Source of the DNA: a candidate division WS6 bacterium OLB20
Lineage (GTDB): Bacteria; Patescibacteriota; Dojkabacteria; B142; OLB20
NCBI GenBank assembly: GCA_001567355.1
Contig: JYNZ01000002.1
Location: 7,477-71,476 of the forward strand
Reading direction: 5' to 3'
DNA length: 64,000 nucleotides
The translations under genes and the position numbers were made by a program. The notes under the pieces were generated by a model. The model was not told the origin of the DNA. It saw only the letters and a list, made by a program, of their open reading frames with translations, and made no database searches. Shown here one piece after another: positions 1 through 38,362 of the stretch (position 1 is the first letter of the stretch; each line of letters opens with the position of its first letter).

Positions 1-540
1 GCACGCAGTCTGGATGCTCGTCTGGACAGACTGACTGCAGAGCAGCTTGCTGATGAGATTGCCGCTTCTGCTGACGACCATGCGGTATTGCAGCTGGATT
101 ACGAGTCGCTCAGCGAAACCCATACTGAAAACTGGATAAACCTGATGGAACAGCTGCCCCAGGCATTCGAAAAAAGAAATATCAGCTTCAGGTCTCCGTC
201 ACGCCTGATCAGACAGTCGCTGCAGCAAAACACGATCTCCCGTCCGAAACAGAAGTTTCTGGAGAACAGGCTGCAGCAGGAGGCAATTGAGCAGCTGTAT
301 TCGATTGAAAAGCTGATAGCCAGCCTCGAGCAGACATATCGCGATAGAGTTACCAGCAGGCAGATCGCAGGCACATGGCGCAAGCTTCAGACTGCTGACC
401 ATTTCGCCTGGATGGCGACGAGCGGATTTATGGCAGGTGATAGCGGAAACAGCCCGTATGATTCACCTTATGACGCCTATATTAATTACATGAATGTACT
501 GCAGGACTTTACAGCTGAGGTTGAAAAGCTGGCAAAGTGA
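1..540 (+). CDS. hypothetical protein, 5'-truncated at the window edge; paralog of the 4523..5512 product
   Basis: The frame is open from base 1 with no stop until 538-540. It shares the motif LPQAFEKR / FPQALEKR and a FAW-containing block with ORF 4523..5512. Confidence 0.45.
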   Translation, partial: ARSLDARLDRLTAEQLADEIAASADDHAVLQLDYESLSETHTENWINLMEQLPQAFEKRNISFRSPSRLIRQSLQQNTISRPKQKFLENRLQQEAIEQLYSIEKLIASLEQTYRDRVTSRQIAGTWRKLQTADHFAWMATSGFMAGDSGNSPYDSPYDAYINYMNVLQDFTAEVEKLAK

Positions 541-2465
541 GCGTACAACTGCCCATGTACCAGGAGTATCTGATCACCAATGCACGGGGAGCCTATTCTT
601 CAGCAGATCCGCTGTACGGAAACACCCGCAAATACCACGGTCTGCTTGTTGTCCCTGATGCCGGACTTAATCGTTTCTGTGCAGTCAACAGGCTGGAAGA
701 GTGGATAGAGGCCGAAGGAAAACAGTACCCCTTATCGACAAACGTTTATAAAAACGGCGGACTCTATCCGGACGGACGCAAACAGCTGAAACAGTTTGAT
801 CTGGTTACATATCCTGTCTGGACCTATCAGCTGGACGGGATTGAAATCAAAAAGTCGCAGGTCATGCAGCACGGTCACAACAGAGTTGTCGTGCGCTATG
901 GCATCAGCTCCGAGGGAGAGGCAACTCTTAATATCATGCCGTTTGTCACGTGGCGCTCGATGCATGCTGTCCGCAGAATTGAACAGCCAGCTCTGATCCA
1001 GATCCGTGAGGAGGGCAGCATTCTGATCAGGCTTGAAGAAACACATTTTGTCAGAATGCATCTGCATGGTTTCAGATATCTGGAGGATCCTGATGTCTAC
1101 CGGGACTTTTATTACCCGGAAGAGCAGCTGCGAGGATATGATGCGCTTGAGGATCTCATAAAGACAGGACTGTTGCAGGCCAGGGTGCCGGCCGGACATT
1201 CCGAATTCACTCTTGTGTTTGACTACTTCGGAGGTTCTGAAGCACCTGACGAGATGACCCGGCAGCCGTTTACCGACTTCAGCAACCGTCTTCAGCAGCT
1301 GTCTGACAGCTATCACGATGACAACAGTGTTCCCCGGACGCCACTTACCGAGATGCTTGTCAGGCAGACTGATCAGTTTATCCTGTCGACTGCTGCAGGG
1401 CCTTCGGTAATTGCAGGATATCACTGGTTTGAAGACTGGGGGCGCGATACGTTTATCTCCTTTCCGGGACTGTTTATAGCCACGAGACGGTTTGAAGAGG
1501 CACGTGCACTGCTGGTGCGCTGGGCGGGTCTGTTTCGTGAGGGGCTACTGCCCAACAGACCTTTTGTGCAGGATTACAATTCAATTGATGCTGTGTTCTG
1601 GTATGCGGTTGCACTCTGGCGCTACATCCAGGAAACTGATGATCTTAAACTCGTCCGTGAGGTAATGCCGGCACTGGAGAGCGTTATTCATGCAATGGAA
1701 AATGGCACAAACAACATCAGTATTGATGAAGACGGGTTCATTGTGGACCGTAACACGCCGTCAGCTCTCACCTGGATGGATGCCAAAATAGACGGGGTTG
1801 CAGTAACCGACCGGTCAGGCAGGGCGGTTGAGATCCAGGCACTGTGGTACAACTTCCTTAAAATTACCGTACAGCTGAAAGACAGGATAAATGACCAGAC
1901 CCATATGACCCGTGCCAGAGCTCTGACAGCGTCACTTGAGAGGGTTTTTGAAGACACTTTTTTCAACCCGGATACCGGATGTCTCTATGACCGTGTGCTT
2001 GATGACCGGAAAGATCCGGCAATACGCCCAAACCAGGTTATAGCTCTGGCTCTGCCGTTTCTGCTTACCGGCAAGCGCACAGCTAAACGAGTACTTGCAG
2101 TCTGCATGCATGAGTTGCTGACAGACTCCGGCCTGCGAACGCTGTCGCCAAATGACCCTGCCTACAAAGGTGAGTATTCTGGTGACCAGAAGACTCGTGA
2201 CAGTGCCTATCATCAGGGGACCATCTGGCCGTTTCTGCTTGGTCATTACATGACTGCTGTTTTGCAGGTTAATGCCTACTCGAAAAAGTCGCGCAATGAA
2301 GTAGCTGACCTGTTTGACAGGCTTGAGAAAAAGTTGCAGGCGGATGAAGTCCGCTATCTGTCCGAACTCTATGATCCCGCAACAATGAAACCTACGGGTT
2401 GCATTTCGCAGGCCTGGAGTGCAGCAACGATCCTCGACGCGTATCTGATGCTTTACAGCTCATGA
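537..2465 (+). CDS. glycogen debranching enzyme, amylo-alpha-1,6-glucosidase (GDE_C) family
   Basis: 642-aa ORF with a GTG start. It contains GYHWFEDWGRDTFISFPGL and a C-terminal ISQAWSAATILDAY, both characteristic of the archaeal-type GDE catalytic (alpha/alpha)6 domain. Its stop TGA overlaps the next ATG as ATGA. Confidence 0.8.
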   Translation: MSVQLPMYQEYLITNARGAYSSADPLYGNTRKYHGLLVVPDAGLNRFCAVNRLEEWIEAEGKQYPLSTNVYKNGGLYPDGRKQLKQFDLVTYPVWTYQLDGIEIKKSQVMQHGHNRVVVRYGISSEGEATLNIMPFVTWRSMHAVRRIEQPALIQIREEGSILIRLEETHFVRMHLHGFRYLEDPDVYRDFYYPEEQLRGYDALEDLIKTGLLQARVPAGHSEFTLVFDYFGGSEAPDEMTRQPFTDFSNRLQQLSDSYHDDNSVPRTPLTEMLVRQTDQFILSTAAGPSVIAGYHWFEDWGRDTFISFPGLFIATRRFEEARALLVRWAGLFREGLLPNRPFVQDYNSIDAVFWYAVALWRYIQETDDLKLVREVMPALESVIHAMENGTNNISIDEDGFIVDRNTPSALTWMDAKIDGVAVTDRSGRAVEIQALWYNFLKITVQLKDRINDQTHMTRARALTASLERVFEDTFFNPDTGCLYDRVLDDRKDPAIRPNQVIALALPFLLTGKRTAKRVLAVCMHELLTDSGLRTLSPNDPAYKGEYSGDQKTRDSAYHQGTIWPFLLGHYMTAVLQVNAYSKKSRNEVADLFDRLEKKLQADEVRYLSELYDPATMKPTGCISQAWSAATILDAYLMLYSS

Positions 2466-4495
2466 GCACGGCACTTGTTTACGGAAACGGCAGCATGCTT
2501 GTAAATGTAAATAACAGGCTCAACATCGCCGACCTTTACTGGCCGTATGTCGGTCAGGAGAATCACCTGAACGAGGTACCGAATCAGATGTTTCTGCGGA
2601 TTGATGGAACGCTGGATATGCTGACAGACTGGGAGATAAGCCCTGCATATACTGAGGACTCACTTGTCGGTAAAAGTTCGGCTCGCAGCGTTTTTCGCAA
2701 GCTCATGTTTAGTCTTCGCGAGGCAGTGCTTCCTGACAAGCAGGTGTTTCTCAGGGAGTATTCATTTACAAATTCGGCGGATTATACGCGTGAAGTGTAC
2801 CTCTATGTGAAGAATAACTTCCGTCTGATGGAAGGTGACATCGGAGACACCGCACTCTGGTATCCAAAGGCAGGCGCGCTTGTCCACTACAAAAAGAACA
2901 GGTATCTGGCAGTCGGTTCATCAGGTGTTCTGCATCAGTTTACCTGCGCATCGCCGCTTGATAACAGTGGCAGGGGAGCGTTTCCGGATACCGAGGGGCA
3001 GCTTGCTTATAATCCGGTGGCAACCGGAGAAGTCGAATCCTGCCTGTCAGTCAAACTGACGATCGCTCCCGGGGAAAGAGTAACTGCAGACTTTTTTCAT
3101 TGCAGCCGGTTATTGCTTTGACGATGTTGAGCAGGAGGCGGCGGAAGTAAGACATGAAGGTGTCAGCAGCCTTCTTGATTCGGCCGATCTTTACTGGCGC
3201 AACTGGGTACGCAGCAAAATCGGCAGCTATGCAGACAAGACACCACAGATATTTGATGATGATGAGCGCAATCAGAAGCTGTTCTCACTGTTCAAACGTT
3301 CTCTCCTTACAATCAGGACACAGTTTGACAATGATGGAGCAATCATCGCTGCGAACGACTCTTCGTTTGTTAAAGCGGGCGGCAAGGATTCATATTCATA
3401 TTTCTGGCCCCGTGACGGAGCACTTGTTGCCTCGGCACTGATAGATGCCGGCTATGGTGATCTGGTTAAAAAGTTTTTCAGATTCTGCAAGGGCATTATC
3501 AGTTCTGACGGGTATATCCTGCACAAGTATCATCCACGGTTTAAGGACGGACTGGCCTCAAGCTGGCACCCGTGGATAGACAAAGGGGGCAACCTGCAGC
3601 TCCCGATTCAAGAGGACGAGACCGCGCTTATTCTGTTTGCACTCTGGAAACACTACGAACGATTTGGTGATCAGGAGTTTCTGAACGAGCTGTACGATGC
3701 CTTTGTCCTCCCTGCCGCTGATTTTCTCTGCAGCTACCGCTATACGACAGAAGATTCACCGGCCTCAATACTGGAACATGTTGGCGGCTTTGCCAGAGCG
3801 GATCAGACCAATCCAATTGATAAAGACCTTAAGGGCACAGCATTGCCCCGGCCAGGTTTTGATATCTGGGAAGTCGAGCGTGGAGTGCATACCTATACTG
3901 TTGCTGCTGTGTATGCCGGGTTGCTTGCATCTGCCCATCTGGCCAAGCATCACGGGGATACGGATCACTCCAGACTGTACCGTCGCACTGCTCAGGATGT
4001 GGCTCAGGCTGCACGGGATCATCTGATCGATAAAAACACCGGACTTCTTATACGCAGTATCACCTGCGATCCGCTTGAAGAGAACTGCAGTATTGATCTC
4101 ACCATGGATGCCTCGCTTATGTATGTCTGGCGGCTGGGACTGCTGCCGGCAGACGATCCCGTGATGGAAGCTACTGTTAATACGATTGAGGAGCGACTCT
4201 GGATAGATAGCGCTGTCGGTGGAATTGCAAGGAAAGAAAATGACTGGTATCACAGGCTGATCATTCTCTACCAGGAAATCCATGGTTCATATCAACACTC
4301 TGGCTTGCACAATACTGGATCAGCCGCGGGGAGTCACAGAGAGCACAAAAGTACCTGGGCTGGGTACTTGATCATGCTGACGAAACGGGACTCATGGCTG
4401 AACAGGCGGACCCTCATCACGGCACAGCCTTATCGGTAAAGCCGCTGACATGGTCACACGCTGAGCTTGTTTCAACTGTTGCTATGCTTCTCTGA
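2462..4495 (+). CDS. GH15 glucoamylase (glucan 1,4-alpha-glucosidase); reading frame broken twice (frameshifted, so pseudogene or sequencing error)
   Basis: Three collinear frame segments together read as one GH15 protein. Frame 2 (2462-3121) is the N-terminal beta-sandwich domain (GNGSMLVNVNN...). Frame 3 (3084-~4270) gives FFIAAGY, SADLYWRNW, YSYFWPRDGA, FDIWEVERG and ENDWYHRL. Frame 2 (4244-4495) gives GNPWFISTLWLAQYW...PLTWSHAELV. Break 1 lies in a T6 run at 3092-3097; removing one T restores DFFIAAGY. Break 2 lies near 4262-4270. Confidence 0.75.
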
Positions 4496-4522: not shown

Positions 4523-5512
4523 ATGGAACGTCTCTTTACCTACGAATCCAATGTGAGGCTGCTCGGTTTTGCCGAGATGATGGCGCTGTTCCCGCAGGCT
4601 CTGGAAAAACGACCTGACCGGCAGCTTTACGATGGTCCTGCGCGGCCGTATTTCCCGGCAAACGAACCGGGACATGTGTATTCTCCCGATTACTCCGTAA
4701 AAACAAGGTTTAATCCCGAAACCGGTCAGTATCACTGTGTACGCCAGTTGCTTGGAGTGTTCAACGAATCTGTGCTTGCAGCAGACCGTTCAAAAATTGC
4801 TGCATTGTATGAGTCAAATCCATTCGGTCTCGACTCCCAGAAGCGGTTCGGTTTTGCATGGTCCAGGTATCTCTATGACGTGAGTGTTGATTTTGCTTTG
4901 CAGTATCCGCGGATGCTGCCGGGCTACTTTGAAGTAATGCGCCTGTCTGGTGCAAACGGGATGATGACACTTGCAGATGCCGGCTCAAGTTACTTCCGGG
5001 AGGAGTTGAAAGGAGAGGAAGACAGTGTCACAACAGAGTCGATGACCAGTGCAGTTGATGACTACCTGTCTTCATTTTTCCACCAGAGGCGTTACAGGGA
5101 TTTTATCAGGGATAAATCTGGTGTACGTAAATATGAGATCTACTGCCTGGGCAGGGGCACAGCAGCCGATGGTATGCGAATCTCAGGACAGAGTGCACTG
5201 GCAGCAGGTCCCGAAATTGCAGCTGATGCCTACGAAACTTTTAACGAATATTCCCAGATCCATATTGTCAGGGTGCTGGAGCTGCTTCTCGCAGCAGGAG
5301 TTGAATCCTCTGACAAATCAGATGAAACCCTTCTGGGAGTGTATACAGCAAAGCTCGCTTCTGAAGGGACAGCAGCTGCTTCAATACTGGCAGACAAACA
5401 TGCATTTGCAGATCACGTCGTTGCCCGGCGAAAAGACCCGAACTGGTCCGTTGCAGGTCAGCAAAATGCCGAGCTGGTCCATCTGTCCTCTCTGGCGAGG
5501 TATGGTGTCTAA
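4523..5512 (+). CDS. hypothetical protein (paralog of the truncated ORF at 1..540)
   Basis: 329-aa ORF with no recognisable domain. It shares N-terminal FPQALEKR and RFGFAWSRY blocks with ORF 1..540. A TATAAT box at 4509-4514 sits 8 nt upstream of the ATG. Confidence 0.5.
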   Translation: MERLFTYESNVRLLGFAEMMALFPQALEKRPDRQLYDGPARPYFPANEPGHVYSPDYSVKTRFNPETGQYHCVRQLLGVFNESVLAADRSKIAALYESNPFGLDSQKRFGFAWSRYLYDVSVDFALQYPRMLPGYFEVMRLSGANGMMTLADAGSSYFREELKGEEDSVTTESMTSAVDDYLSSFFHQRRYRDFIRDKSGVRKYEIYCLGRGTAADGMRISGQSALAAGPEIAADAYETFNEYSQIHIVRVLELLLAAGVESSDKSDETLLGVYTAKLASEGTAAASILADKHAFADHVVARRKDPNWSVAGQQNAELVHLSSLARYGV

Positions 5513-6953
5513 AGCTTGTGCAGATTTAGTACGGTAAGCTTTCCACGCGTCATCAGTTCCAGGGTCTCAATTGTACCCTGCATCAGCTGACCCGAGTCTT
5601 TGACTCCACCAAACGGAAAATTGTCAGGTCCCCGGTCCGGTCTGCCGTTGATCTGGACCGTCCCTACTTCAAGCTTATCAGCAATACGGAACGCCTCTTC
5701 TATATCCTGAGTGTAAATGCTTGCCTGCAGGCCATACGCAAGATTACTGTGATAGGCTAGCGCCATTTCCTCATCCTTGACGCGTGTTACCGGCAGAACC
5801 GGTCCGAACTGTTCCTCTGAGAAGATGCGCATTTCCGGGGTGACCCTGTCGAGGATATTGGCTGCAATATGGTTGCCATTGCGCTCACCTTTAACTATGT
5901 GTGATGCTCCTTTAGAATTTGCGTCATCCAGAAGCTCTGTGATGTAGTCTGCCGCTTTTGAGTCGATCATCGGATTGAGCTCCAGACCTGCGGCTTTTTC
6001 TTGCAGTTTTTCAACCAGCTGATCAGCGACGCTTTCGTATACAAGGACAAGTTTCTGAGCGGTGCAGCGCTGACCGCAGTACGAAAACCCTCCTGAGATG
6101 ATCTCGCTGGCTGCCATTTCAAGATCGGCATGGCTGGTAACAATGGCGGTATCCTTGCCGCCGAGCTCGAGCAGAAGCGGAATTCCCTGAGAAACTTCTG
6201 CAAGATGTCTGCCGACTGCTGTGCTACCGGTGAATGCGATCAGTTTTACACGCTGGTCACTGGTCATCGGGTCGCCAATCTCGCGAGAGCTGCCGGTAAC
6301 GATGTTAAACACTCCTGCCGGGAAACCTGCATTGGCAAAATGTCTGTAAAATGCTATCGCGCTTACAGAGCCCTGTGTTGCCGGTTTAAATACAACAGTA
6401 TTGCCTGCAAGCAGCGCAGGAGCAATCTTTGTAATCGACAGATTAAGCGGGTAATTAAACGAAGATATGGCAAGAACCACTCCCAGTGGTTCGCGTGAAT
6501 AATATCCGGTTTTCGCCCGCGCTCAAACTGACCGGTGACGTCCCCGGCATAAATGCTTCCTTTCATATGCCTGAGGGCCTCAATGGCAAGTTCCGCATAA
6601 CCGAGTGAACGTTCAAATTCTGACTCTGCTGCATCGTCATGTTTTCCGATCTCCCTGCCAAGCAGTGAAACAATCCTTGGCTTGTCAGCACGGATCAGAT
6701 CTATCGCCTTGCGCATCATCTCTACGCGACCCGCTACGGATGTCCTGCGCCAGGTGGTAAAGGCGTGGTCAGCAGCTTCAATCGCTGACAGCGCCTGTTC
6801 CTTTGTCGCGGCCTGTACTGTACCGCAGACAGTGTCATCCCACGGAGAGTAGATATCAATCGTTTCTCCCGATCCCGAATCGACCCATTCATTATTTATC
6901 AGCAGTCTGCTCTGATCCATAATTACTCTCCTAATATAGCTACATACTAACAA
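5509..6953 (-). CDS. gapN: NADP-dependent non-phosphorylating glyceraldehyde-3-phosphate dehydrogenase (GapN, ALDH superfamily); frameshifted near 6485-6500
   Basis: The two ORFs 6363..6953 and 5509..6480 are collinear halves of one protein. REPLGVVLAISSFNYPLNLSITKIAPALLAGN...ELGGKD closely matches GapN (FNYPVNLAGSKIAPALIAGN). The N-terminal frame ends in HANHWEWFLP while the shifted frame reads REPLGVV, indicating a 1-nt indel. Confidence 0.7.
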
Positions 6954-7032
6954 CTGGCCATGCGAGCAACAAGCAGCACTTATAATGTTGCAGTAATTTT
7001 GCTACAGTTTACCTGTAACAACTCACTGCCTG

Positions 7033-10000
7033 ATGAACACACAAAACGTATTTCATGCATACGACGTCAGAGGAATTGTTCCCGACGAACTGAATGCATC
7101 ACTGGTATACAAAATCGCACATGCGTACTTCTCACTTGTAGACGGGCAACGCTATATCATCGGATATGACATGCGTGAGACTTCTGCTGACCTGTTTACT
7201 GCATTTGTCAGAGCAGCGCATGATCTTGGTAAAGAGATTGAATCTGTCGGTATGGTGACGACAGACATGCTTTACTTTGCGCTTGGCAGATATGAGTACG
7301 ATGGCGGGATCATGATCACTGCTTCGCATAACCCCAAGATTTATAACGGTATTAAGATGATGGCCAGGGGAGTGGTGCCGGTATCGATGCAGGAACTGAA
7401 AGAACGATTTGATTCAGTAAGCGTCGAAGTCCCTCATGATCTGCTTGAGCGTAAGGCCGATATACCCGTAAAGCAAAGCAGCAGTGACTACGTCGATCAT
7501 GTACTTGGATGTGTGGATATCAATGCTATTCCTCCTCTTAAGGTCGTTGTCGACGCAGGCAACGGCATGGGCGGTCTCAATGCCAGAAAGGTGCTGGAAC
7601 GGCTTCCGTCGGTTGAGGTAATCGAAATGTACTTCGAACCGAATGCCAACTTCCCTCATCACGAGGCTAATCCCGTGATACGATCAAACACAAAAGAACT
7701 TGGTCAGATGGTTGTTGCAGAACGTGCTGATCTCGGTATCGCTTATGATGGCGATGGAGACCGCTGTCTGTTTGTTGATTCCAAGGGTGAGTATGTTCCG
7801 GGTCACCTGATGGTTGCTCTGTTTGCCCGCTACTATATGCAAAAGGAACAGGGTGCCAGGATAGCCTACGAGCACCGGAATGTCTATGCGATTCAACATG
7901 AAATCCGCGAAATGGGTGGAGAGGGAGTGCCTGTTCGCGCAGGACATTCGTTTTTCAAAGAGCGAATGCACAACGACGGGATAATCTTCGGCGGCGAGAG
8001 CAGCGCACATTATTATTTCCGGGATACCTATTTTGCAGATAACGGTGTGCTGCCGTTTCTGATTCTGTTTGAGATGCTTGGTAACTACCAGACAACATTG
8101 CGGGAACTATTGAGCTACTACCGCGAAAACTTTTTTGCGAGCGGGGAGCTTAACTTTATGCTCAATGAGGGCACAGACCCGGCTCATGTGAAAGATGCGT
8201 TTCATGCAGAGCTGCATCCGGTCCGCGATGAAGAACCGGACGGACTTGTGATGGAATTTGACAACTGGCGCTTTAATGCCCGCATGTCAAATACAGAGCC
8301 GGTTATGCGCATTAATATTGAGGCGCTTGCCTCTGACCAGCTTGATGAATCAATCCTCACGATCCACGAGATAATGAGTTCATTCGGAACATTTCTGGGT
8401 GATGGATCAGCCAGATCAGCAGATGAACTGAAAATTACAGCCAAGGACAGGTTTGAGATGCTGCTTGATAATCTCTGGTATACATGGAATCCGCATTACA
8501 TCCTGCCGATCGTGGATCTGTATGGTGACGGCTGGCGAAAAAATTCTCCGCCGGGCGAGTTCAGTTCACAGTACGGTATCAAAAAACTGTCACAGGTTCT
8601 TGATGACAAATCGTGGGAAATTGAGCAGAATGTCCGCCTGTTTGAAGCATATATGGATGAATCGCTGCCGACATGGTTCAGCAGATTTATCTCTGAGGAT
8701 CAAAACGGTGTATTTCGCATTCTGAAAGAAAAGCCTGTTGCCTACTTCAGTCTCGAGTACGGGCTTGTCGACTGGCTGCAGATCTATTCTGGCGGACTTG
8801 GGGTACTTGCCGGAGATTTCATCAAGGAGGCAAGTGACATGGGAATTCCGTTTGCCGCAGTAGGTATCTTTTATCACCAGGGCTACTTTCATCAGGATTT
8901 TGACGGGAACGGCCTTCAACAGGAGACGTACATCGAACAGCGACCAGAAGAGTATCCGCTTGAGCTTGTTACAGATGATGAAGGGAAGCCGCTGACCGGA
9001 GAGATTGAGATTATAGATCACCCTGTTTACTTCAGGGCCTGGAAGCTGCATGTCGGCAAAACACCTCTGTACCTTCTCGATACAAATTTTGAGAAAAACG
9101 AACGTCAGGAAGACCGCATGATTACTGCGCATCTCTATGGCGGTGATCAGGACACAAGGATCAGGCAGGAGATACTGCTTGGTATCGGTGGACCCCGTCT
9201 GCTTGAGCGACTTGGTATCAAGCCGGCTCTCTACCATATGAACGAAGGACACTCAGGTTTTCTGGTACTCGAGATTGCCCGCCAGTTCATCGAAGGCGAG
9301 GGCAAAAGTTTTGATGAGGCGATCGCCATGGTTGATGAACGTCTTGTCTTCACCAATCACACGTTAAAACAGGCGGGTAACGATATTTTCAGCTATGAAT
9401 TGATGGAGCGCTACTTCGGTACCTACCTTGATAACCTGCATACCGATATGGGCAGGGTGTTTGAGCTGGGTAAAGACGATCTCTATGCTCATGGCGACTT
9501 CTCAATGACAGTTCTTGGTTTGCGCAACGCTAAAATCTCAAATGCAGTAAGTCTTCTGCATGGTGAGGCGGCAAAACGTCTCTGGCCCGACTTCGGGCTT
9601 GTACCTGTTACAAATGGTGTACACATGCCCACCTGGGTTTCGCCCGAGATACATGCACTGCTGGACAAGTATGTCGGCGAGGACTGGCATTTTCCGGGTC
9701 GAACGGTGGATTATGAAAAAGTGCAGCAGATTCCTGACGACGAATTATGGGAGACGCATCTCGAACGCAAAAATAAACTGATTACCACACTGAATAACGA
9801 ACTTGCACTGGAGCTTGATCCGGAGGCGCTGACTATTGCATGGTCACGCAGGCTTACATCCTACAAACGGCCGGACATGATTGTCTCTGATCTGGAGCGT
9901 CTGAAGCAGCTGGTTCAGACTGCAGGTAAGCCGGTGCAGATCCTGATTGCCGGTAAAGCACATCCCCGTGACGGTATCGGTAAGGATCTGCTGCAGAAGA

Positions 10001-10449
10001 TGAACCAGAGTGTATCTCAGCCGGAGTTCCGCAACCGGGTCGTAGTTGTACCGGGATACAACTGGCAGCTTGCGCGCAGGATGGTCTCAGGAGCCGATGT
10101 CTGGCTTAACACTCCGTACCGCTTTGAAGAGGCATCAGGAACGAGTGGCATGAAAGCGGCAGCAAACGGTGTTCTACAGCTTACAACTAAAGATGGCTGG
10201 ACTGATGAGGTGGACTGGTTCCAGAAAGGCTGGCTGATTTCTGAAGAAAATCCTGTTGACTCGCTGCACGATACGCTGGAATATAAGATTATACCGCTTT
10301 ACTTTGACCATAACGGAAGCGGCTACAACGAAGACTGGCTGCAGATGATGAAAAATACAATGCAGACGGTTCTTGAGCATTACAGTACTGTACGCATGAT
10401 GAAGCAGTATCTGGATCTTATTTATAAACCGGTACTTGATGGACTCTAG
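7033..10449 (+). CDS. fusion protein: phosphoglucomutase/phosphomannomutase (N-terminal ~455 aa) joined to an alpha-glucan (glycogen/maltodextrin) phosphorylase with a DUF3417-type N-terminus (C-terminal ~680 aa)
   Basis: The N-terminal half carries the PGM/PMM active-site loop TASHNPKIYNGIKM and the C-terminal EIMSSFGTF. The C-terminal half carries LLDNLWYTWNP (the DUF3417 start), AYFSLEYGL...YSGGLGVLAGD, and the PLP-site motif EEASGTSGMKAAANG. A single uninterrupted frame of 1138 aa runs through both halves. Confidence 0.8.
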   Translation: MNTQNVFHAYDVRGIVPDELNASLVYKIAHAYFSLVDGQRYIIGYDMRETSADLFTAFVRAAHDLGKEIESVGMVTTDMLYFALGRYEYDGGIMITASHNPKIYNGIKMMARGVVPVSMQELKERFDSVSVEVPHDLLERKADIPVKQSSSDYVDHVLGCVDINAIPPLKVVVDAGNGMGGLNARKVLERLPSVEVIEMYFEPNANFPHHEANPVIRSNTKELGQMVVAERADLGIAYDGDGDRCLFVDSKGEYVPGHLMVALFARYYMQKEQGARIAYEHRNVYAIQHEIREMGGEGVPVRAGHSFFKERMHNDGIIFGGESSAHYYFRDTYFADNGVLPFLILFEMLGNYQTTLRELLSYYRENFFASGELNFMLNEGTDPAHVKDAFHAELHPVRDEEPDGLVMEFDNWRFNARMSNTEPVMRINIEALASDQLDESILTIHEIMSSFGTFLGDGSARSADELKITAKDRFEMLLDNLWYTWNPHYILPIVDLYGDGWRKNSPPGEFSSQYGIKKLSQVLDDKSWEIEQNVRLFEAYMDESLPTWFSRFISEDQNGVFRILKEKPVAYFSLEYGLVDWLQIYSGGLGVLAGDFIKEASDMGIPFAAVGIFYHQGYFHQDFDGNGLQQETYIEQRPEEYPLELVTDDEGKPLTGEIEIIDHPVYFRAWKLHVGKTPLYLLDTNFEKNERQEDRMITAHLYGGDQDTRIRQEILLGIGGPRLLERLGIKPALYHMNEGHSGFLVLEIARQFIEGEGKSFDEAIAMVDERLVFTNHTLKQAGNDIFSYELMERYFGTYLDNLHTDMGRVFELGKDDLYAHGDFSMTVLGLRNAKISNAVSLLHGEAAKRLWPDFGLVPVTNGVHMPTWVSPEIHALLDKYVGEDWHFPGRTVDYEKVQQIPDDELWETHLERKNKLITTLNNELALELDPEALTIAWSRRLTSYKRPDMIVSDLERLKQLVQTAGKPVQILIAGKAHPRDGIGKDLLQKMNQSVSQPEFRNRVVVVPGYNWQLARRMVSGADVWLNTPYRFEEASGTSGMKAAANGVLQLTTKDGWTDEVDWFQKGWLISEENPVDSLHDTLEYKIIPLYFDHNGSGYNEDWLQMMKNTMQTVLEHYSTVRMMKQYLDLIYKPVLDGL

Positions 10450-10777
10450 CATTGAGGACTTTGACCTGGAACCTGAAGTAAGCACACCCTGGAAGCGAGC
10501 GTTGTTTGAAGTCTCACTGGTTCTGGCAGTGGTTGTGCTCTTCGGTCTGATCGGTGTCTCCGCCTATCGCGCTGTTGAGGAGGAGCTGCAGTATCAGAAA
10601 CAGCTTGGTGGTGAGTTGCTTGTCACCTGCCAGAGACTCTACTGGGAAGAAGTCTACGACCCCGATCAGGTGGCAATAAACTCCGAGGCCCTCAATGTGT
10701 ATTACAGCAAACATACTGACTGTAAAATATTCAATGTGACCGAATTAGATCCTCTCTTCTTTGAGTCTGTCCGATAA
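10436..10777 (+). CDS. hypothetical small membrane-anchored protein
   Basis: 113-aa ORF overlapping the upstream stop by 14 nt. It has a single hydrophobic helix (LFEVSLVLAVVVLFGLIGV). Confidence 0.4.
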   Translation: MMDSSIEDFDLEPEVSTPWKRALFEVSLVLAVVVLFGLIGVSAYRAVEEELQYQKQLGGELLVTCQRLYWEEVYDPDQVAINSEALNVYYSKHTDCKIFNVTELDPLFFESVR

Positions 10778-10940
10778 CATCACTACGAGCGAGTAGGCAA
10801 TCGGAAATACGGACACGTCCGGAGATAAGTCCGGATTGTTGTATTATCCAAATGAAACTGCCTTGAAATTCTCAGGTCGAATCTGTTATACCTATTGTCT
10901 GATGGTTAATTTCGACGTCAGACCGAATTGTTTCAGCAAC

Positions 10941-10969
10941 TTGGTTGAATTCGGTCAGAATGATATAAT
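10941..10969 (+). promoter_or_regulatory. sigma70-like promoter (TTGGTT-17-TATAAT) ending 6 nt before the ATG at 10976; implies a leaderless transcript
   Basis: TTGGTT at 10941-46, a 17-nt spacer, TATAAT at 10964-69, and ATG at 10976. Confidence 0.35.
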
Positions 10970-10975
10970 GGGTAT

Positions 10976-12526
10976 ATGAGTAACTCCGGAGAACACATAC
11001 GTTACAGGCATGAATCGGTCAGACAGGAGGAATCCTCGGATACAGAAGGCCGGTTTACTGCAGTTGCAGAACAGCTGTTAGAACTTGAGCCAGCTGGTCA
11101 TCTGAAAACGCCAGATGTGATTAACCCTCCGTTCCGCAGACAAGCCTGGATCAAAGTCGATACCATGCCTCAAGCAGTGTTGTTTGCCGATACGCATCTG
11201 ATGCCTGCAATCAGCTCTCAGGATCCGCGTTCACGAATGTCTTCAACAAAGCGTTATGCGTTCAACTTCTCCGCTGTGCCGGGTGTCGCCTCACTGACGC
11301 GCTGGAATGACCTTGCAACAAGGGTCGGTCTGCATCTCGCACGCAAACAGATGGAGGAGGCTCTGACGACTGCTGACATCATGGGGTCGCTCGGTGATAA
11401 CTTTGACGCCTACGGGGTTGAGGGTTTTCTTGAAACAATGGCTTATACAGAGGACTATGTAACACGCCGTTTTGCCAATGCCGACCGCGATGACCGCCCC
11501 GGATACTTCAGTATTGTGGCAGGCAATCATGATATGGCGACTCGCGTGAATTGTCCGGAGGCTGTTGCTGGCTATATGGGGCTGCGCAAACAGCAGCTTG
11601 CAAAAACTACGTTTGATGCCATGGTTGCACTCGCTGAAAAAGGATACAGCATGCATACGTTACATACTATGTGGAAGGAAGCTGCCGAAGGGGACAGAAC
11701 CGAACCATACAAGCTGCTGCCGGCCGAACGCTGGTTTCTGCAGCGGTTGTATACAGGACCTGAGATCGGGGCCTTTGAAAAAAGAAACAATGATGGTTCT
11801 GCAACTGTAGTTGCTTTTCTTAACTCAGAGTTCGGGCGCGAAGGCTGCACACTGCAGGATCTTTGCGAAACCGTTGAGATGGATCTTGGCAGAGAGGCAG
11901 ACGATGAAACAGGCCGCAAGATGATCGAAACATATGCATCTGACATCGGACGCCAGCGCGCAGTCATTGACGGACTTATGGAGACACTTGTCAGTCATGC
12001 AGATTCACGGGCTGTCGTCTACACACACAATCCAGTCATGATGCAGCAGGAGCTGATCCGTGAATTGATTGCTCACGACGGGGAACGATTTGCGACCTTT
12101 GAGGAGGCAAGAGAATTTGTTACTAAAAGGATTCTGACAATAGGTGGACACTACCATCTTAAAGAGCATCTTCCGTCAGATGCAGAAGGAATATACATGG
12201 TAAACGGATTTTCAAGACAGGTTGTTTCGATGATTGCAGAGGGACCCCGGAGGAGCTGGTATGGCACCAGGTTCAGACTGCGAGCATACTCAGACCCGGA
12301 TGATTATGCCGAGTTCCTCTTTGGAGCGCTTGATGACCCTCAAACCGCCAGGATAACAGGTGCTGAGATTACAGGAAAACTTGATGCTGTGAGGCGTGAT
12401 CTTAAGTCCAGGCTCCTAGGCAAAGCTGCCCGTGCAGTTGCCCGGATGTGGCAGGCTGCCGATTATCAGCAGAGAGAGGGACAATCAGAGCTTGAACTCG
12501 ACCCGCAAAGCTCCGGTCTTGATTAG
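10976..12526 (+). CDS. calcineurin-like metallophosphoesterase domain protein with a long C-terminal extension
   Basis: Metallophosphoesterase motifs occur in order: D-x-H (VLFADTHL), GD-x-x-D (LGDNFDAYG), GNHD (IVAGNHDM). Confidence 0.6.
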   Translation: MSNSGEHIRYRHESVRQEESSDTEGRFTAVAEQLLELEPAGHLKTPDVINPPFRRQAWIKVDTMPQAVLFADTHLMPAISSQDPRSRMSSTKRYAFNFSAVPGVASLTRWNDLATRVGLHLARKQMEEALTTADIMGSLGDNFDAYGVEGFLETMAYTEDYVTRRFANADRDDRPGYFSIVAGNHDMATRVNCPEAVAGYMGLRKQQLAKTTFDAMVALAEKGYSMHTLHTMWKEAAEGDRTEPYKLLPAERWFLQRLYTGPEIGAFEKRNNDGSATVVAFLNSEFGREGCTLQDLCETVEMDLGREADDETGRKMIETYASDIGRQRAVIDGLMETLVSHADSRAVVYTHNPVMMQQELIRELIAHDGERFATFEEAREFVTKRILTIGGHYHLKEHLPSDAEGIYMVNGFSRQVVSMIAEGPRRSWYGTRFRLRAYSDPDDYAEFLFGALDDPQTARITGAEITGKLDAVRRDLKSRLLGKAARAVARMWQAADYQQREGQSELELDPQSSGLD

Positions 12527-12569: not shown

Positions 12570-12656
12570 TGGTGTCGGAGGAGGGACTCGAACCCTCACG
12601 ACTGTTAAGGTCAAAGGATTTTAAGTCCTTCGTGTCTACCATTCCACCACTCCGAC
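12570..12656 (-). tRNA. tRNA-Leu (anticodon TAA), long variable arm, CCA encoded
   Basis: The reverse complement folds as GTCGGAG/CTCCGAC acceptor, D-arm, anticodon loop CTTAAAA, long extra arm, T-arm GGTTCGAGTCC, discriminator A, CCA. Confidence 0.85.
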
Positions 12657-12694
12657 CCTACGGATGTCATAAAGCTGAGTCAGCAGCTATAGTA

Positions 12695-12768
12695 AGGTGA
12701 CGGCGGGATTCGAACCCGCGCGTAAGGGTTTTGCAGACCCTCGCCTTAACCAGCTTGGCTACGTCACC
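12695..12768 (-). tRNA. tRNA-Cys (anticodon GCA), CCA not encoded
   Basis: The reverse complement folds with acceptor GGTGACG/CGTCACC, anticodon loop CTGCAAA, T-arm GCGGGTTCGAATCCCGC, and discriminator U. Confidence 0.85.
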
Positions 12769-13059
12769 GTACGTAGGGCAATTGTATCAGAAATAAAACC
12801 TCTGTCACCACTGTATGTCGGAATGCGGCCGATTTAGGGTAGAATGTTGCATAATTATCGTCAACTGTATGTGTCTTTTCTGCGGAGCCCCTGGTGGTCA
12901 CAATCTGGCGCAGTTAATCCCTTATATCGCAGTAACTGCACCTTTGCTTGTTATGCGTTTGAAGGTCGCACGCAGATCAAAAAAACATTCGAATGGAGAT
13001 CTGATGACGAAGAGCTTAAAGCGCACACCGAGGTAATATACATCTGTTGATGCTCTGTG

Positions 13060-13134
13060 TCGGGGTGACAAGACTCGAACTTGCGACCTCGCGCACCCGA
13101 AGCGCGCGCTCTAAGCCAACTGAGCTACACCCCG
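13060..13134 (-). tRNA. tRNA-Pro (anticodon CGG)
   Basis: The reverse complement folds with acceptor CGGGGTG/CACCCCG, D-arm GCTCAGTTGGCTTAGAGC, anticodon loop TTCGGGT, T-loop TTCGAGT, and discriminator A. Confidence 0.85.
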
Positions 13135-13219
13135 ATACAGCACATCAGTAGTCACATCCCGCTCTTAAGAACCCGTTGTCAATTCTGAAGTATGCAGGTC
13201 TCACAAAGGAATAATAGTC

Positions 13220-13307
13220 TGGTGCCGGAGACAGGACTCGAACCTGCACAGCTGTTAAGGCCACATGCACCTGAAGCATGCGTGTCTACCAATTTCACCA
13301 CTCCGGC
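13220..13307 (-). tRNA. tRNA-Leu (anticodon CAG), long variable arm, CCA encoded
   Basis: The reverse complement folds with acceptor GCCGGAG/CTCCGGC, anticodon loop TTCAGGT, long extra arm, T-loop TTCGAGT, and ACCA. Confidence 0.85.
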
Positions 13308-13431
13308 ATACTGTCAAATAAGGCGTTACTGAACGCTGGAGCTTATTATATACCCTGACGGGCATTTTTTGTACTCCCTGACGCTACTGCTGCTGAACGG
13401 TCATCCTTTTTTTGGACTGTGTCGGGGTGAC

Positions 13432-13506
13432 AAGACTCGAACTTGCGACCTCACGCACCCCATGCGTGCGCTCTAAGCCAACTGAGCTACACCCCGTCAC
13501 AGCACA
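13432..13506 (-). tRNA. tRNA-Pro (anticodon GGG)
   Basis: Near-duplicate of the 13060..13134 tRNA, with the anticodon stem-loop CACGC-ATGGGGT-GCGTG. Confidence 0.85.
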
Positions 13507-37150: not shown

Positions 37151-38362
37151 TTACCTTGAAACACCAGCCGCAACTGGGACATTCCGCTTCATCATCAAAG
37201 CCGGTCGCAGTGAGATCTCCATCCCCGGGCTGAATCCTGCATTACTGCCGTTCTGGCGGTTTGCGGCATATGAGAAGCCGCAACCCTTAAGCACAAAGTT
37301 AGCCTGCCGCATCATTGTGTCCTGATCGTCTCTGGATAATGAATCAAAAGAGTCAAGTGTGCAGGTCTCACCTTGCAGGGCTTTGATGTACTGTTCTATT
37401 CTGAACTGCTGGCGCATTATCGCTGCTGCAATCTCTTCCAGGGTTTCGATTTCGATCCATCCTTCGCGCGAAGAGGAGAGTCTGGCGGCTTCGGATTCAG
37501 CAATCGGCAGAATAGAATCGTAAACCTGTGACTGAACATCAAGTAGCATAAAATCCTGCAGCAGAGAGACTTTTTCAGGCGGCAGTGTCTTCAGTCTCTG
37601 TGTCGAAGCAAACTGACGCAGGCTGTCGATAAAGTCTTCGCTGACCCGACCCGAGGTACTCATTATCGCAATATCATCGAGGATCCCGGGCATGTTCTGC
37701 AGCGGGTCAGGCTCGCTACTGTATTCACAAACAGCGCTGCGTACAGGATCGGAAGCCAACTGCTGCAGAAGAGGACGGTAAGCCTCATAGCTGGCTGCAC
37801 CCTTGAACCAGAGCTGTTCAACATGTTCAGTGCCATTCTCAGACCGGTAAATAAGGATTGTATCGTTACCTTCGTAGCCTCTTGCATACGCCTGCTGTGT
37901 CATTTCGGGGCGCGGACTGAATTCAGCCATAGGGCCATTGTAGCCTGCTGCGCGGGCACGCTTGAGACGTTCGTAAAAGAGCCGGTTTTGTGTATTGCGC
38001 GGCTGCTCAAACTCAAAACCTTCCAGCTGTGCAGAAGAGTCGGTTTCTGCGAACAGGTCGTCAAGCAGACCGAACTGTGACTTCAGCGCCGGGCCGAGTG
38101 GAGTGTCGGTCCAGTGCAGACAATAGCTGTCTTTTCCGGTTGCTGAAGCGGTGTGGTGCTCCCGGACTGCACGAAACAGGTTACTGTGCGCCTCGGCACG
38201 CGCTGCTGCAATGGCCTCTGGTGTGCTGATGAGATATCCTTCTAGAAGTGTCGCCACATAATTGACGGCATTTGCAGCAATACCCGCATAACGGTCTTTT
38301 ACTGAACGGACGTAGTCACGTTCATAAATGGATATTGTTTCTGGAATGACTGCTTCGGTCAT
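37151..38362 (-). CDS. hypothetical protein
   Basis: 403-aa ORF with no recognisable domain. Confidence 0.45.
   Translation of the reverse strand: MTEAVIPETISIYERDYVRSVKDRYAGIAANAVNYVATLLEGYLISTPEAIAAARAEAHSNLFRAVREHHTASATGKDSYCLHWTDTPLGPALKSQFGLLDDLFAETDSSAQLEGFEFEQPRNTQNRLFYERLKRARAAGYNGPMAEFSPRPEMTQQAYARGYEGNDTILIYRSENGTEHVEQLWFKGAASYEAYRPLLQQLASDPVRSAVCEYSSEPDPLQNMPGILDDIAIMSTSGRVSEDFIDSLRQFASTQRLKTLPPEKVSLLQDFMLLDVQSQVYDSILPIAESEAARLSSSREGWIEIETLEEIAAAIMRQQFRIEQYIKALQGETCTLDSFDSLSRDDQDTMMRQANFVLKGCGFSYAANRQNGSNAGFSPGMEISLRPALMMKRNVPVAAGVSR

What the first reader, a model, noticed from the sequence alone, without database searches (positions are those of the whole stretch)
7033..10449. 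Single-ORF fusion of phosphoglucomutase/phosphomannomutase to alpha-glucan phosphorylase
One uninterrupted 1138-aa frame carries a complete PGM/PMM (TASHNP active-site loop, ending EIMSSFGTF). A ~20-aa linker follows, then a complete GT35 alpha-glucan phosphorylase beginning at its DUF3417 motif (LLDNLWYTWNP) and including the PLP-lysine motif EASGTSGMK. The two enzymes are consecutive steps, glycogen to Glc-1-P to Glc-6-P. A covalent fusion would channel Glc-1-P. I do not recognise this architecture as a described one. The gene sits immediately downstream of the debranching enzyme and glucoamylase, and divergent from gapN.
Basis: partly seen in the sequence, partly recalled or inferred. Interest (0 to 1): 0.7.

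Follow-up and report, generated by a model that had tools for sequence, protein, structure and literature searches.

The report
Phosphoglucomutase fused to glycogen phosphorylase
One gene in an uncultured WS6/Dojkabacteria bacterium really does join two consecutive glycogen-breakdown enzymes into a single protein, a fusion conserved across that lineage but apparently never described, although some relatives keep the first enzyme only as a catalytically dead domain.

Summary
Window 7033-10449 (+) is one 1138-codon ORF. It encodes a complete PMM/PGM-type phosphohexomutase (aa 1-454, all four catalytic loops intact), a ~20-aa linker, and a complete DUF3417/TIGR02094 PLP-dependent alpha-glucan phosphorylase (aa 474-1138).

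It is not an assembly artefact:
- An independent assembly of another sequencing run encodes the identical protein.
- 16 further full-length homologues (43-66% identity) from other metagenomes keep the same in-frame junction and a near-constant linker length.

The gene closes a conserved glycogen cluster: GlgA-GH57-GDE-GH15-gapN-[PGM-]phosphorylase. Trees indicate one ancestral fusion in a Dojkabacteria clade. The architecture is rare, with about six clusters at 50% identity among 1.84 billion representative proteins. I found no paper describing it, and databases name it after one half only.

The most likely function is glucan + Pi -> Glc-1-P -> Glc-6-P on one polypeptide. True channelling is untested.

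There is an unexpected twist. Several relatives have lost every PGM catalytic motif yet keep the full-length domain, and others have lost the domain entirely. Coupled catalysis is therefore not the only thing keeping the N-domain.

Verdict: a real new domain architecture of known enzymes, of moderate interest.

The parts
7033..10449 (+). Complete fusion ORF, 1138 aa plus stop: PMM/PGM - linker - DUF3417 - alpha-glucan phosphorylase.
   Evidence: It is 100% identical to P0001, 'candidate division WS6 bacterium OLB20'. The identical protein is encoded on an independent Logan contig.
7033..8394 (+). PMM/PGM-type phosphohexomutase half (aa 1-454), with four domains.
   Evidence: Pfam PF02878/PF02879/PF02880/PF00408. 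NF007088 aligns aa 3-445. X. citri PGM 5kl0/6nn2/5bmn scores E 7e-86. Foldseek gives TMt 0.92 to 5bmp.
7318..7335 (+). TASHNP, the catalytic phosphoserine loop (Ser98).
   Evidence: Conserved as TASHN[PSRA] in all motif-intact fused homologues. The role of the loop comes from established knowledge of the alpha-D-phosphohexomutase family.
7747..7764 (+). DGDGDR metal-binding loop (aa 239-244).
7990..8010 (+). GGESSAH sugar-binding loop (aa 320-326).
8281..8301 (+). RMSNTEP phosphate-binding loop of domain IV (aa 417-423).
8395..8451 (+). Inter-enzyme linker (aa 455-473). It is variable in sequence and near-constant in length across homologues.
   Evidence: Alignment A1. Linker identity to homologues is 4-33%. 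AF2 pLDDT is 70-78 and never below 50. The longest homopolymer in 8350-8500 is A4.
8452..8772 (+). DUF3417 alpha-helical N-terminal domain of the phosphorylase (aa 474-580).
   Evidence: Pfam PF11897, 33.7 bits against a cut-off of 25. The standalone orthologue in L009 starts exactly here.
8737..10431 (+). Alpha-glucan phosphorylase catalytic body (TIGR02094, aa 569-1133).
   Evidence: 645 bits. S. copri glycogen phosphorylase 9l6i scores E 4e-120 and TMt 0.69.
9847..9852 (+). Arg939-Arg940. Arg940 aligns with the phosphate-binding R508 of S. copri GP.
   Evidence: Alignment, the role of R508, and invariance in A1.
10129..10155 (+). EASGTSGMK. Lys1041 is the PLP-binding lysine.
   Evidence: It aligns with K609 of S. 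copri GP, which carries PLP. It is invariant in all fused and unfused homologues.
5509..6953 (-). gapN-type aldehyde dehydrogenase, divergent from the fusion. It is split by a frameshift near 6501-6513.
   Evidence: Pfam Aldedh on both pieces. tblastn with the intact 466-aa L009 orthologue. The same split appears in the independent Logan contig.
4523..5512 (+). 329-aa ORF of unknown function lying between GH15 and gapN.
   Evidence: No Pfam hit. No counterpart in the related loci. Also called on the independent Logan contig.
2462..4489 (+). GH15 glucoamylase in three frame pieces, with breaks near 3093-3097 and 4250-4259.
   Evidence: The intact orthologue is 658 aa.
537..2465 (+). Glycogen debranching enzyme (GDE_N + GDE_C), 642 aa.
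31..540 (+). C-terminal end of a GH57 enzyme that runs off the window start.
   Evidence: tblastn with L082 GH57, 38% identity over aa 243-421.

Best explanation
The ORF encodes a genuine, lineage-conserved bifunctional protein of a WS6/Dojkabacteria (CPR) bacterium.

**Anatomy (shown)**
- The N-terminal module is a PMM/PGM-type alpha-D-phosphohexomutase. Its phosphoserine, metal, sugar and phosphate loops are all intact.
- A ~20-aa linker of near-constant length ties it to a DUF3417/TIGR02094 PLP-dependent alpha-glucan phosphorylase. The nearest characterised relative of that half is Segatella copri 'clade 2' glycogen phosphorylase, but this protein lacks that enzyme's C-terminal beta-domain.
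- The gene is the last member of a conserved glycogen cluster: GlgA, GH57, GDE debranching enzyme, GH15 glucoamylase, gapN.

**Proposed working (inferred)**
- The phosphorylase half releases Glc-1-P phosphorolytically from glycogen or maltodextrin ends.
- The mutase half on the same chain converts it to Glc-6-P for glycolysis.
- The PGM equilibrium favours Glc-6-P, which pulls phosphorolysis forward. The fusion guarantees 1:1 expression and proximity.
- Real substrate channelling is possible but unproven.

**Evolution (shown comparatively)**
- The fusion arose once at the base of a Dojkabacteria clade.
- Later, some lineages kept the N-domain as a full-length but catalytically dead module, and others deleted it.
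- The N-domain therefore probably also contributes something non-catalytic, such as packing, oligomerisation or regulation.
For: **Both halves complete**
- ORF and domains.
- All four PGM loops are intact, and the PLP-Lys1041 and Arg940 equivalents are present and invariant.
- Closest solved structures are X. citri PGM (E 7e-86, TMt 0.92) and S. copri GP (E 4e-120, TMt 0.69).

**Junction is real**
- The identical 1138-aa protein is on an independent Logan contig from run SRR29904083.
- 16 further full-length homologues at 43-66% identity have the same in-frame junction and a near-constant linker length.
- Six GTDB species representatives carry the full-length two-part protein, three of them with intact PGM motifs.

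**Defined packing**
- AF2 gives pLDDT 90.5 and pTM 0.86 for the whole chain, with an ordered linker.

**Pathway context**
- The cluster GlgA-GH57-GDE-GH15-gapN-[PGM-]phosphorylase recurs in L001, L007, L009, L010, L006, L042 and L082.

**Single origin**
- In the phosphorylase tree the whole clade has 100% support, and PGM-intact members sit in both deep subclades.
- Intact PGM halves group apart from 11 other standalone PGMs at 100%.

**Rarity**
- About 6 fused representatives among 1.84e9 proteins, against 4109 hits at E<=1e-30.

**Precedent**
- TreS-Mak is a functional fusion of consecutive alpha-glucan enzymes.
Against: - There are no biochemical data for any member.
- The PGM half stays below every NCBIfam equivalog cut-off (384.6 against 618 bits for NF007088). 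Glucose versus mannose or glucosamine phosphate specificity is therefore not assigned.
- Relatives with dead PGM motifs (P0011, P0018, P0116, P0118, P0119, L005, L010), a partly deleted PGM half (P0015, P0115) or none at all (L008, L009, L042) show the phosphorylase does not need coupled mutase catalysis.
- In this very organism the neighbouring gapN, and probably GH15, are frameshifted. The catabolic cluster may be decaying.
- The AF2 inter-domain packing could not be inspected, because no coordinates or PAE were available. It rests on a shallow alignment of 38 sequences.
- Channelling would require facing active sites, which was not examined.
Confidence: 0.7

Rival explanations
1. The N-terminal PGM module is mainly a structural or regulatory appendage of the phosphorylase. 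It might serve as a sugar-phosphate sensor, an oligomerisation module or a glycogen-particle docking module. Its mutase catalysis, where still present as in this window, would then be incidental or secondary.
For: - At least two separate groups of relatives have lost all four PGM catalytic loops yet keep a full-length (469-479 aa), open, alignable N-domain.
- One such protein cluster has ten 1136-aa members without a single indel, drawn from NCBI, JGI, ENA and Logan.
- The dead-domain protein P0011 is still predicted to fold and pack (pLDDT 87, pTM 0.81).
- In S. copri GP the N-terminal alpha-helical domain, to which the PGM is attached here, governs oligomerisation.
Against: - In the window protein and 15 other full-length homologues every catalytic loop is conserved. 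Those PGM halves also evolve almost as slowly as the phosphorylase, with an identity ratio of about 0.8 against about 0.45 for dead ones. That is what an active enzyme predicts.
- Some lineages lost the domain entirely (L008, L009, L042), so it is not structurally indispensable.
- The AF2 result for P0011 is driven by an alignment dominated by intact homologues.
Confidence: 0.17
2. Both halves are active but not functionally coupled. The mutase would chiefly serve the opposite direction or another sugar, for example Glc-6-P to Glc-1-P for glycogen or nucleotide-sugar synthesis, or Man/GlcN phosphates for the envelope. On this view the fusion only provides co-expression in a small genome.
For: - The PGM half matches dual-specificity PMM/PGM and archaeal GlmM models without reaching any equivalog cut-off.
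- The cluster also holds the synthesis genes GlgA and GH57.
- PGM domains are fused to many unrelated partners in other organisms, including nucleotidyl transferases, GT2, hydrolases and alpha-amylase. This suggests the family fuses promiscuously.
Against: - The partner is specifically the enzyme that produces the mutase's substrate.
- The fusion has been retained with a near-constant linker length and predicted tight packing over deep divergence.
- L008, which lacks the fusion, has an intact standalone PGM right next to its phosphorylase. That points to a functional link between the two activities.
Confidence: 0.1
3. The fusion is an artefact. On this view there are really two adjacent genes, joined by an assembly or sequencing indel that removed a stop, or the region is a chimeric join.
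For: Neighbouring genes in the same window carry frame breaks, two of the three at homopolymer runs.
Against: - An independent assembly of a different run gives the identical 1138-aa protein.
- 16 other full-length homologues from unrelated metagenomes, at 43-66% identity, keep the junction in frame with a near-constant linker length.
- The junction DNA has no homopolymer longer than 4.
- The gapN frameshift is itself reproduced independently, so it is probably real and not a sign of a sloppy assembly.
Confidence: 0.02

Closest known systems
Segatella copri glycogen phosphorylase ScGP ('clade 2' GP; PDB 9L6I; PNAS 2026, PMC12912991)
   Same: - It is the best solved relative of the C-half (E 4e-120, TMt 0.69).
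- It has the same DUF3417-type alpha-helical N-domain plus phosphorylase body.
- The equivalents of its PLP lysine (K609 = K1041), phosphate arginine (R508 = R940) and distal AMP-site arginine (R583 = R1015) are all present and invariant.
   Different: - ScGP is a standalone 852-aa enzyme with an extra C-terminal beta-sheet domain and a short N-terminal loop.
- The window protein lacks that beta-domain: the alignment ends near ScGP residue 711 and there is no PF28476 hit.
- It carries a 454-aa PGM on its N-terminus instead.
- Its oligomeric state is unknown, whereas ScGP is a pentamer/decamer.
Xanthomonas citri PGM (XanA; PDB 5BMN/5BMP) and Pseudomonas aeruginosa PMM/PGM (AlgC; PDB 1K35)
   Same: - They share the four-domain alpha-D-phosphohexomutase fold, with TMt 0.92 and 0.88.
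- The sequence E-values are 7e-86 and 2e-57.
- All four catalytic loops are conserved.
   Different: Those are standalone ~450-460-aa enzymes that feed exopolysaccharide or LPS synthesis. Here the module is covalently attached upstream of a phosphorylase and sits in a glycogen cluster.
TreS-Mak (TreS-Pep2) bifunctional fusion of the GlgE alpha-glucan pathway
   Same: It is a natural single-chain fusion of two consecutive alpha-glucan pathway enzymes, shown biochemically to be bifunctional. It is the best described analogue of the logic proposed here.
   Different: The enzyme families are unrelated (GH13 trehalose synthase plus maltokinase). It acts on the synthetic route, it is widespread, and it has been experimentally characterised.
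Glycogen synthase-phosphorylase fusions (GT5/GT3 - DUF3417 - PF00343, 1000-1425 aa; e.g. P0026, P0142, P0255)
   Same: The same DUF3417-type phosphorylase carries another glycogen enzyme fused to the same N-terminal position. This shows the position tolerates fusions.
   Different: The partner is a glycogen synthase, which acts in the opposing direction and is not the next catabolic step. These fusions are much commoner among the database hits, and their phosphorylase halves are only 38-43% identical to this one.
GlgA-GlgB fusion of Waddlia chondrophila / Estrella lausannensis (PMC7935935)
   Same: It is a fusion of glycogen enzymes in which one half has become non-functional while the other stays active. 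This is a precedent for the dead-PGM relatives found here.
   Different: The enzymes and the lineage differ. In the window protein both halves look intact.

Membership tests
alpha-D-phosphohexomutase superfamily (PMM/PGM type) | Four-domain architecture (PGM_PMM I-IV) | tested here: met
   Pfam domains I, II and III are above cut-off. Domain IV scores 21.0 bits against 23.1. NF007088 aligns 3-445 of 456 positions. Foldseek gives TMt 0.92 to 5bmp.
alpha-D-phosphohexomutase superfamily (PMM/PGM type) | Catalytic phosphoserine loop T-A-S-H-N | tested here: met
   TASHNP at aa 96-101. It aligns with TASHNP of X. citri PGM.
alpha-D-phosphohexomutase superfamily (PMM/PGM type) | Metal-binding loop D-x-D-x-D-R, sugar loop G-E-x-S-x-H, and phosphate loop R-x-S-x-T-E-P | tested here: met
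   DGDGDR at 239-244, GGESSAH at 320-326 and RMSNTEP at 417-423.
alpha-D-phosphohexomutase superfamily (PMM/PGM type) | Assignment to a specific equivalog (PGM vs PMM vs GlmM) by curated score | tested here: not met
   The best model is NF007088 at 384.6 bits against a cut-off of 618. TIGR03990 scores 287.7 against 439. The superfamily is certain, but substrate preference is not assigned.
alpha-D-phosphohexomutase superfamily (PMM/PGM type) | Glc-1-P <-> Glc-6-P mutase activity dependent on Glc-1,6-bisP and Mg2+ | not testable with these tools
   This needs an enzyme assay.
GT35 alpha-glucan phosphorylase, TIGR02094 / DUF3417 subfamily | Score above the curated subfamily cut-off over the full model | tested here: met
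   TIGR02094 scores 645 bits against 191.7, covering model positions 1-600/600. PF00343 scores 104.7 against 27 and PF11897 scores 33.7 against 25.
GT35 alpha-glucan phosphorylase, TIGR02094 / DUF3417 subfamily | PLP-binding lysine in the E-A-S-G-T-S-G-x-K motif | tested here: met
   K1041 aligns with ScGP K609, which carries PLP. It is invariant in A1.
GT35 alpha-glucan phosphorylase, TIGR02094 / DUF3417 subfamily | Phosphate-binding arginine (ScGP R508) | tested here: met
   R940 aligns with R508. It is invariant.
'Clade 2' glycogen phosphorylases as defined for S. copri GP | [quoted passage not shown] | tested here: not met
   The protein ends at the position aligned with about residue 711 of the 852-aa ScGP. 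There is no PF28476 hit, whereas standalone relatives P0021-P0028 have one. It is related to clade 2 but is not a typical member.
'Clade 2' glycogen phosphorylases as defined for S. copri GP | Pentameric assembly and AMP-induced decamer | not testable with these tools
   Only the distal-site arginine equivalent (R1015 = ScGP R583) could be checked, and it is conserved.
Natural bifunctional fusion of consecutive pathway enzymes | Both modules complete, in one frame, with the junction conserved across species and independent assemblies | tested here: met
Natural bifunctional fusion of consecutive pathway enzymes | Kinetic coupling or channelling of the intermediate | not testable with these tools
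   This needs transient-time or competition kinetics, or an experimental structure.

The most novel reading that the evidence does not exclude
The PGM module is more than a tethered next-step enzyme. On this reading it is an integral regulatory or architectural subunit of a new kind of glycogen phosphorylase. It could sense hexose phosphates (Glc-1-P, Glc-6-P, Glc-1,6-bisP) or set the oligomeric or glycogen-docking state. That would explain why several Dojkabacteria lineages keep it as a full-length pseudoenzyme after losing every catalytic residue. The family would then document an enzyme-to-allosteric-domain transition captured at all stages: active, dead and deleted.
Probability: 0.2. Interest if true: 0.65.

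Novelty: new variant of a known kind. Interest (0 to 1): 0.45.

Why it matters
- **A compact route in a reduced genome.** CPR bacteria such as Dojkabacteria have tiny genomes and minimal metabolism. A single polypeptide that takes stored or scavenged alpha-glucan straight to Glc-6-P would be a compact entry into their fermentative glycolysis.
- **A new fusion type.** It would add an undescribed architecture to prokaryotic glycogen metabolism. The comprehensive 2024 review lists TreS-Mak, GlgB-MalQ and GlgA-GlgB, and no PGM-phosphorylase fusion turned up in the part of the text that is held.
- **A natural template for engineering.** Starch-to-sugar-phosphate cascades pair exactly these two activities (stated from my own knowledge; no paper was checked for this).
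- **A natural series for evolutionary study.** The active, dead and deleted forms within one clade allow study of how a fused enzyme domain is repurposed or lost.
- **An annotation problem.** Every public name covers only one half ('phosphomannomutase/phosphoglucomutase', 'alpha-glucan family phosphorylase' or 'starch phosphorylase'). Pathway reconstructions will therefore miss an activity, or wrongly credit a PGM to genomes whose copy is dead.

Tried and rejected
- **Assembly artefact: rejected.** The independent Logan contig and the 16 further full-length homologues rule it out.
- **Internal translation start giving a separate phosphorylase: no support.** ATG at aa 476 (nt 8458) has an AAGGA upstream, but the Met is not conserved in the homologues. 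The promoter and terminator scan of 6800-11000 found nothing above shuffled expectation.
- **Independent PGM-phosphorylase fusions in other phyla: none found.** Every other long hit checked was a glycogen synthase-phosphorylase fusion or had no PGM domain.
- **L013, sister to the fused clade: uninformative about the pre-fusion state.** The 302-aa ORF upstream of its phosphorylase has no Pfam hit.
- **Literature: no description found.** Searches for the fusion, for Dojkabacteria/CPR glycogen metabolism and for 'OLB20' returned nothing relevant, and the OLB20 hits were unrelated lab codes.
- **AFDB comparison: not possible.** The afdb50 fold library was unavailable, so I could not list UniProt entries with this architecture.
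- **Active-site geometry: not possible.** Model coordinates and PAE are not exposed, so the distance between the two active sites could not be measured.
- **Second PGM: only partly checked.** There is no second PGM in the 64-kb window, but whole genomes could not be searched.

Full report
**1. The observation**

Window 7033-10449 (+) is a single ORF of 1138 codons plus stop. At the window's base composition, 1138 stop-free codons have a probability of about 5e-25.
- TASHNP at aa 96-101
- EIMSSFGTF at aa 446-454
- LLDNLWYTWNP at aa 477-487
- EASGTSGMK at aa 1033-1041

Pfam delimits these domains:
- PGM_PMM domains I (aa 5-118), II (152-252), III (257-361) and IV (373-436, just under cut-off)
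- DUF3417 (474-580)
- Phosphorylase PF00343 (734-1056)

NCBIfam gives TIGR02094 'alpha-glucan family phosphorylase' at 645 bits (cut-off 191.7) over aa 569-1133. The PMM/PGM model NF007088 aligns aa 3-445, below its equivalog cut-off.

**2. Is the junction real?**

The protein is 100% identical to a database entry from 'candidate division WS6 bacterium OLB20'. The neighbouring genes gave reason for suspicion:
- The GH15 glucoamylase is in three frame pieces.
- gapN is in two pieces.
- Two of the three breaks sit at T-runs.

Three lines of evidence remove the doubt for the fusion:
- The junction DNA has no homopolymer longer than four bases.
- An independent Logan assembly of a different run (SRR29904083, a 6.9-kb contig) encodes the identical 1138-aa protein.
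- 16 further full-length proteins from unrelated metagenomes, 43-66% identical, carry the same architecture. Their junction is in frame, and their linker varies in sequence but is nearly constant in length.

The Logan contig also reproduces the split gapN. That frameshift is therefore probably a real property of this organism and not an assembly error.

**3. Catalytic competence**

In the window protein all four phosphohexomutase loops are intact:
- phosphoserine loop TASHNP
- metal loop DGDGDR
- sugar loop GGESSAH
- phosphate loop RMSNTEP

The closest solved relatives of the N-half are Xanthomonas citri PGM (E 7e-86; Foldseek TMt 0.92) and P. aeruginosa PMM/PGM.

The closest solved relative of the C-half is Segatella copri glycogen phosphorylase, PDB 9L6I (E 4e-120, TMt 0.69). 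Three of its functional residues align with residues of the window protein:
- PLP-carrying K609 aligns with K1041.
- Phosphate-binding R508 aligns with R940.
- Distal AMP-site R583 aligns with R1015.

All three are invariant in the fused family.

[quoted passage not shown] No solved chain covers both halves; the best TMq is 0.54.

AlphaFold2 on a 38-sequence alignment gives pLDDT 90.5 and pTM 0.86 for the whole chain. The linker region scores pLDDT 70-78. This suggests the halves pack in a defined way, although I could not inspect the interface.

**4. Genomic context**

A conserved cluster recurs in the related loci: GlgA, GH57, GDE debranching enzyme, GH15 glucoamylase, gapN on the opposite strand, then the [PGM-]phosphorylase.

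The window holds the same cluster:
- tail of GH57 at 31-540
- GDE at 537-2465
- GH15 at 2462-4489
- an unknown 329-aa ORF at 4523-5512
- gapN at 5509-6953 (-)
- the fusion

'Divergent from gapN' is correct.

**5. Distribution and evolution**

An exhaustive HMMER scan of 1.84 billion representatives found only about six full-length PGM-phosphorylase representatives at 50% clustering, against 4109 hits at E<=1e-30. The other long hits I checked are glycogen synthase-phosphorylase fusions. Named members are labelled Candidatus Dojkabacteria or are loosely labelled Patescibacteria MAGs.

The motif table shows three states of the N-half:
- **Intact:** the window protein, P0002-P0010, P0012-P0014, P0016, P0017, P0117 and L006.
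- **Catalytically dead but full length:** P0011, P0018, P0116, P0118, P0119, L005 and L010. P0015 and P0115 have a partly deleted PGM half.
- **Absent:** L008, L009 and L042.

In L009 and L042 the synteny is unchanged, and the L009 standalone phosphorylase starts exactly where the linker ends. In L008 an intact standalone PGM lies divergently next to the phosphorylase.

In an NJ tree of the phosphorylase halves the whole clade has 100% support. PGM-intact members occur in both deep subclades, and the dead and absent forms nest within one of them. The intact PGM halves group together, with one standalone 458-aa protein weakly placed among them. They are separated at 100% from eleven other standalone PGMs. 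The parsimonious reading is one ancestral fusion followed by repeated decay or loss of the PGM module.

**6. Are the dead domains just decaying?**

| Measure | Intact PGM | Dead PGM |
|---|---|---|
| PGM/phosphorylase identity ratio between pairs | 0.78-0.86 | 0.44-0.59 |
| Length of the region before DUF3417 | 470-496 aa | 469-479 aa |

The dead domains evolve roughly twice as fast relative to the phosphorylase half. They nevertheless stay full length and open.

One dead-domain cluster has ten 1136-aa members from four data sources. It shows no indels, and substitutions per site are 2.9 times more frequent in the N-domain than in the C-domain. P0011 is still predicted to fold and pack (pLDDT 87, pTM 0.81), though that prediction leans on intact homologues in the alignment.

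This looks like relaxed but persisting constraint. It hints at a non-catalytic contribution from the N-domain. A literature precedent for a half-dead glycogen-enzyme fusion is GlgA-GlgB of Waddlia.

**7. Mechanism**

Shown:
- The anatomy of both halves and their intact catalytic residues.
- The conserved junction and the conserved glycogen-cluster context.

Inferred from established enzymology of GT35 phosphorylases and phosphohexomutases:
- The C-half phosphorolyses alpha-1,4-glucan ends to Glc-1-P.
- The N-half isomerises this to Glc-6-P, with an equilibrium favouring Glc-6-P. That feeds glycolysis and pulls phosphorolysis forward.
- The fusion enforces stoichiometry and proximity.

Not shown:
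- Channelling.
- Sugar specificity of the mutase.
- Oligomeric state.
- AMP regulation.

**8. Novelty**

I found no paper describing this architecture. The 2024 Chemical Reviews survey of prokaryotic alpha-glucan enzymes mentions the TreS-Mak, GlgB-MalQ and GlgA-GlgB fusions, but no PGM-phosphorylase fusion appears in the part of the text that is held. The sequences are public, but each is named after one half only.

It is a new domain architecture built from two well-known enzyme families, so it counts as a new variant of a known kind (natural fusions of consecutive pathway enzymes). It is confined to a small CPR clade. Interest is moderate. The fusion itself would not astonish a specialist, but the active, dead and deleted series within one clade is a neat, testable system.

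Noticed in passing
window 6501-6513 (gapN, minus strand, 5509-6953): gapN-type aldehyde dehydrogenase is split into two overlapping ORFs by a frameshift at a T4 run. The same split (267 + 185 aa) appears on an independent Logan contig from run SRR29904083. It is therefore probably a real pseudogene or frameshift in this organism and not an assembly error. Intact orthologues are 466-470 aa.
   Followed up: partly
window 2462-4489 (breaks near 3093-3097 and 4250-4259): The GH15 glucoamylase is in three frame pieces, and the first break is in a T7 homopolymer. Intact orthologues are 658 aa. No independent contig covers the breaks, so I cannot tell a real pseudogene from a sequencing error.
   Followed up: partly
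P0011, P0018, P0116, P0118, P0119; L005 9765-13157; L010 5507-8863; L002 7631-10528 (= P0015): These relatives of the fusion have lost all four PGM catalytic loops (for example SPGNGD for TASHNP and NQDGSS for DGDGDR), or have a partly deleted PGM half. They still keep the N-domain fused to an intact phosphorylase, which makes it a PGM-derived pseudoenzyme domain.
   Followed up: yes
L009 9989-12010; L042 5423-6709; L008 961-2976 and 9-809 (-): In close relatives (55-56% identity) the phosphorylase is standalone and starts at DUF3417. Synteny is otherwise unchanged in L009 and L042. L008 has an intact standalone PGM divergently adjacent to its phosphorylase.
   Followed up: yes
P0026, P0142, P0176, P0220, P0231, P0255 and many 1400-1425-aa hits: A different and much commoner N-terminal fusion to the same DUF3417 phosphorylase has a glycogen synthase (GT5 or GT3) in front of the phosphorylase. 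It joins opposing activities in one chain.
   Followed up: partly
L081 731-2659 and 2587-4197 (P0020): One fused homologue is broken by a frameshift inside the phosphorylase half, while the PGM-DUF3417 junction stays intact.
   Followed up: partly
window 4523-5512 (+): This 329-aa ORF between GH15 and gapN has no Pfam hit and no counterpart in any related locus. It is reproduced on the independent Logan contig.
   Followed up: partly
window 38415-38557 (-) and 37151-38362 (-): A cobalamin riboswitch (44.8 bits against a gathering score of 31.5) lies directly upstream of a 403-aa ORF with no Pfam hit. This might be an unrecognised B12-related transporter or enzyme in a CPR bacterium.
   Followed up: partly
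window 12570-13496 (-): A cluster of five tRNA genes (Leu-TAA, Cys-GCA, Pro-CGG, Leu-CAG, Pro-GGG) lies about 2 kb downstream of the fusion.
   Followed up: no
window aa 1015 of the fusion (nt 10075-10077): Arg1015 aligns with R583 of S. copri GP, the distal AMP-site residue needed for AMP-induced decamer formation. It is invariant in the fused family, which hints that AMP regulation may be retained.
   Followed up: partly
L011 (LNGD01000243.1, 1690 bp): A 1.7-kb contig binned to the archaeon 'Candidatus Methanofastidiosum methylothiophilum' encodes a Dojkabacteria-type phosphorylase fragment that is 56% identical to the window protein. This is probably a binning contaminant.
   Followed up: no
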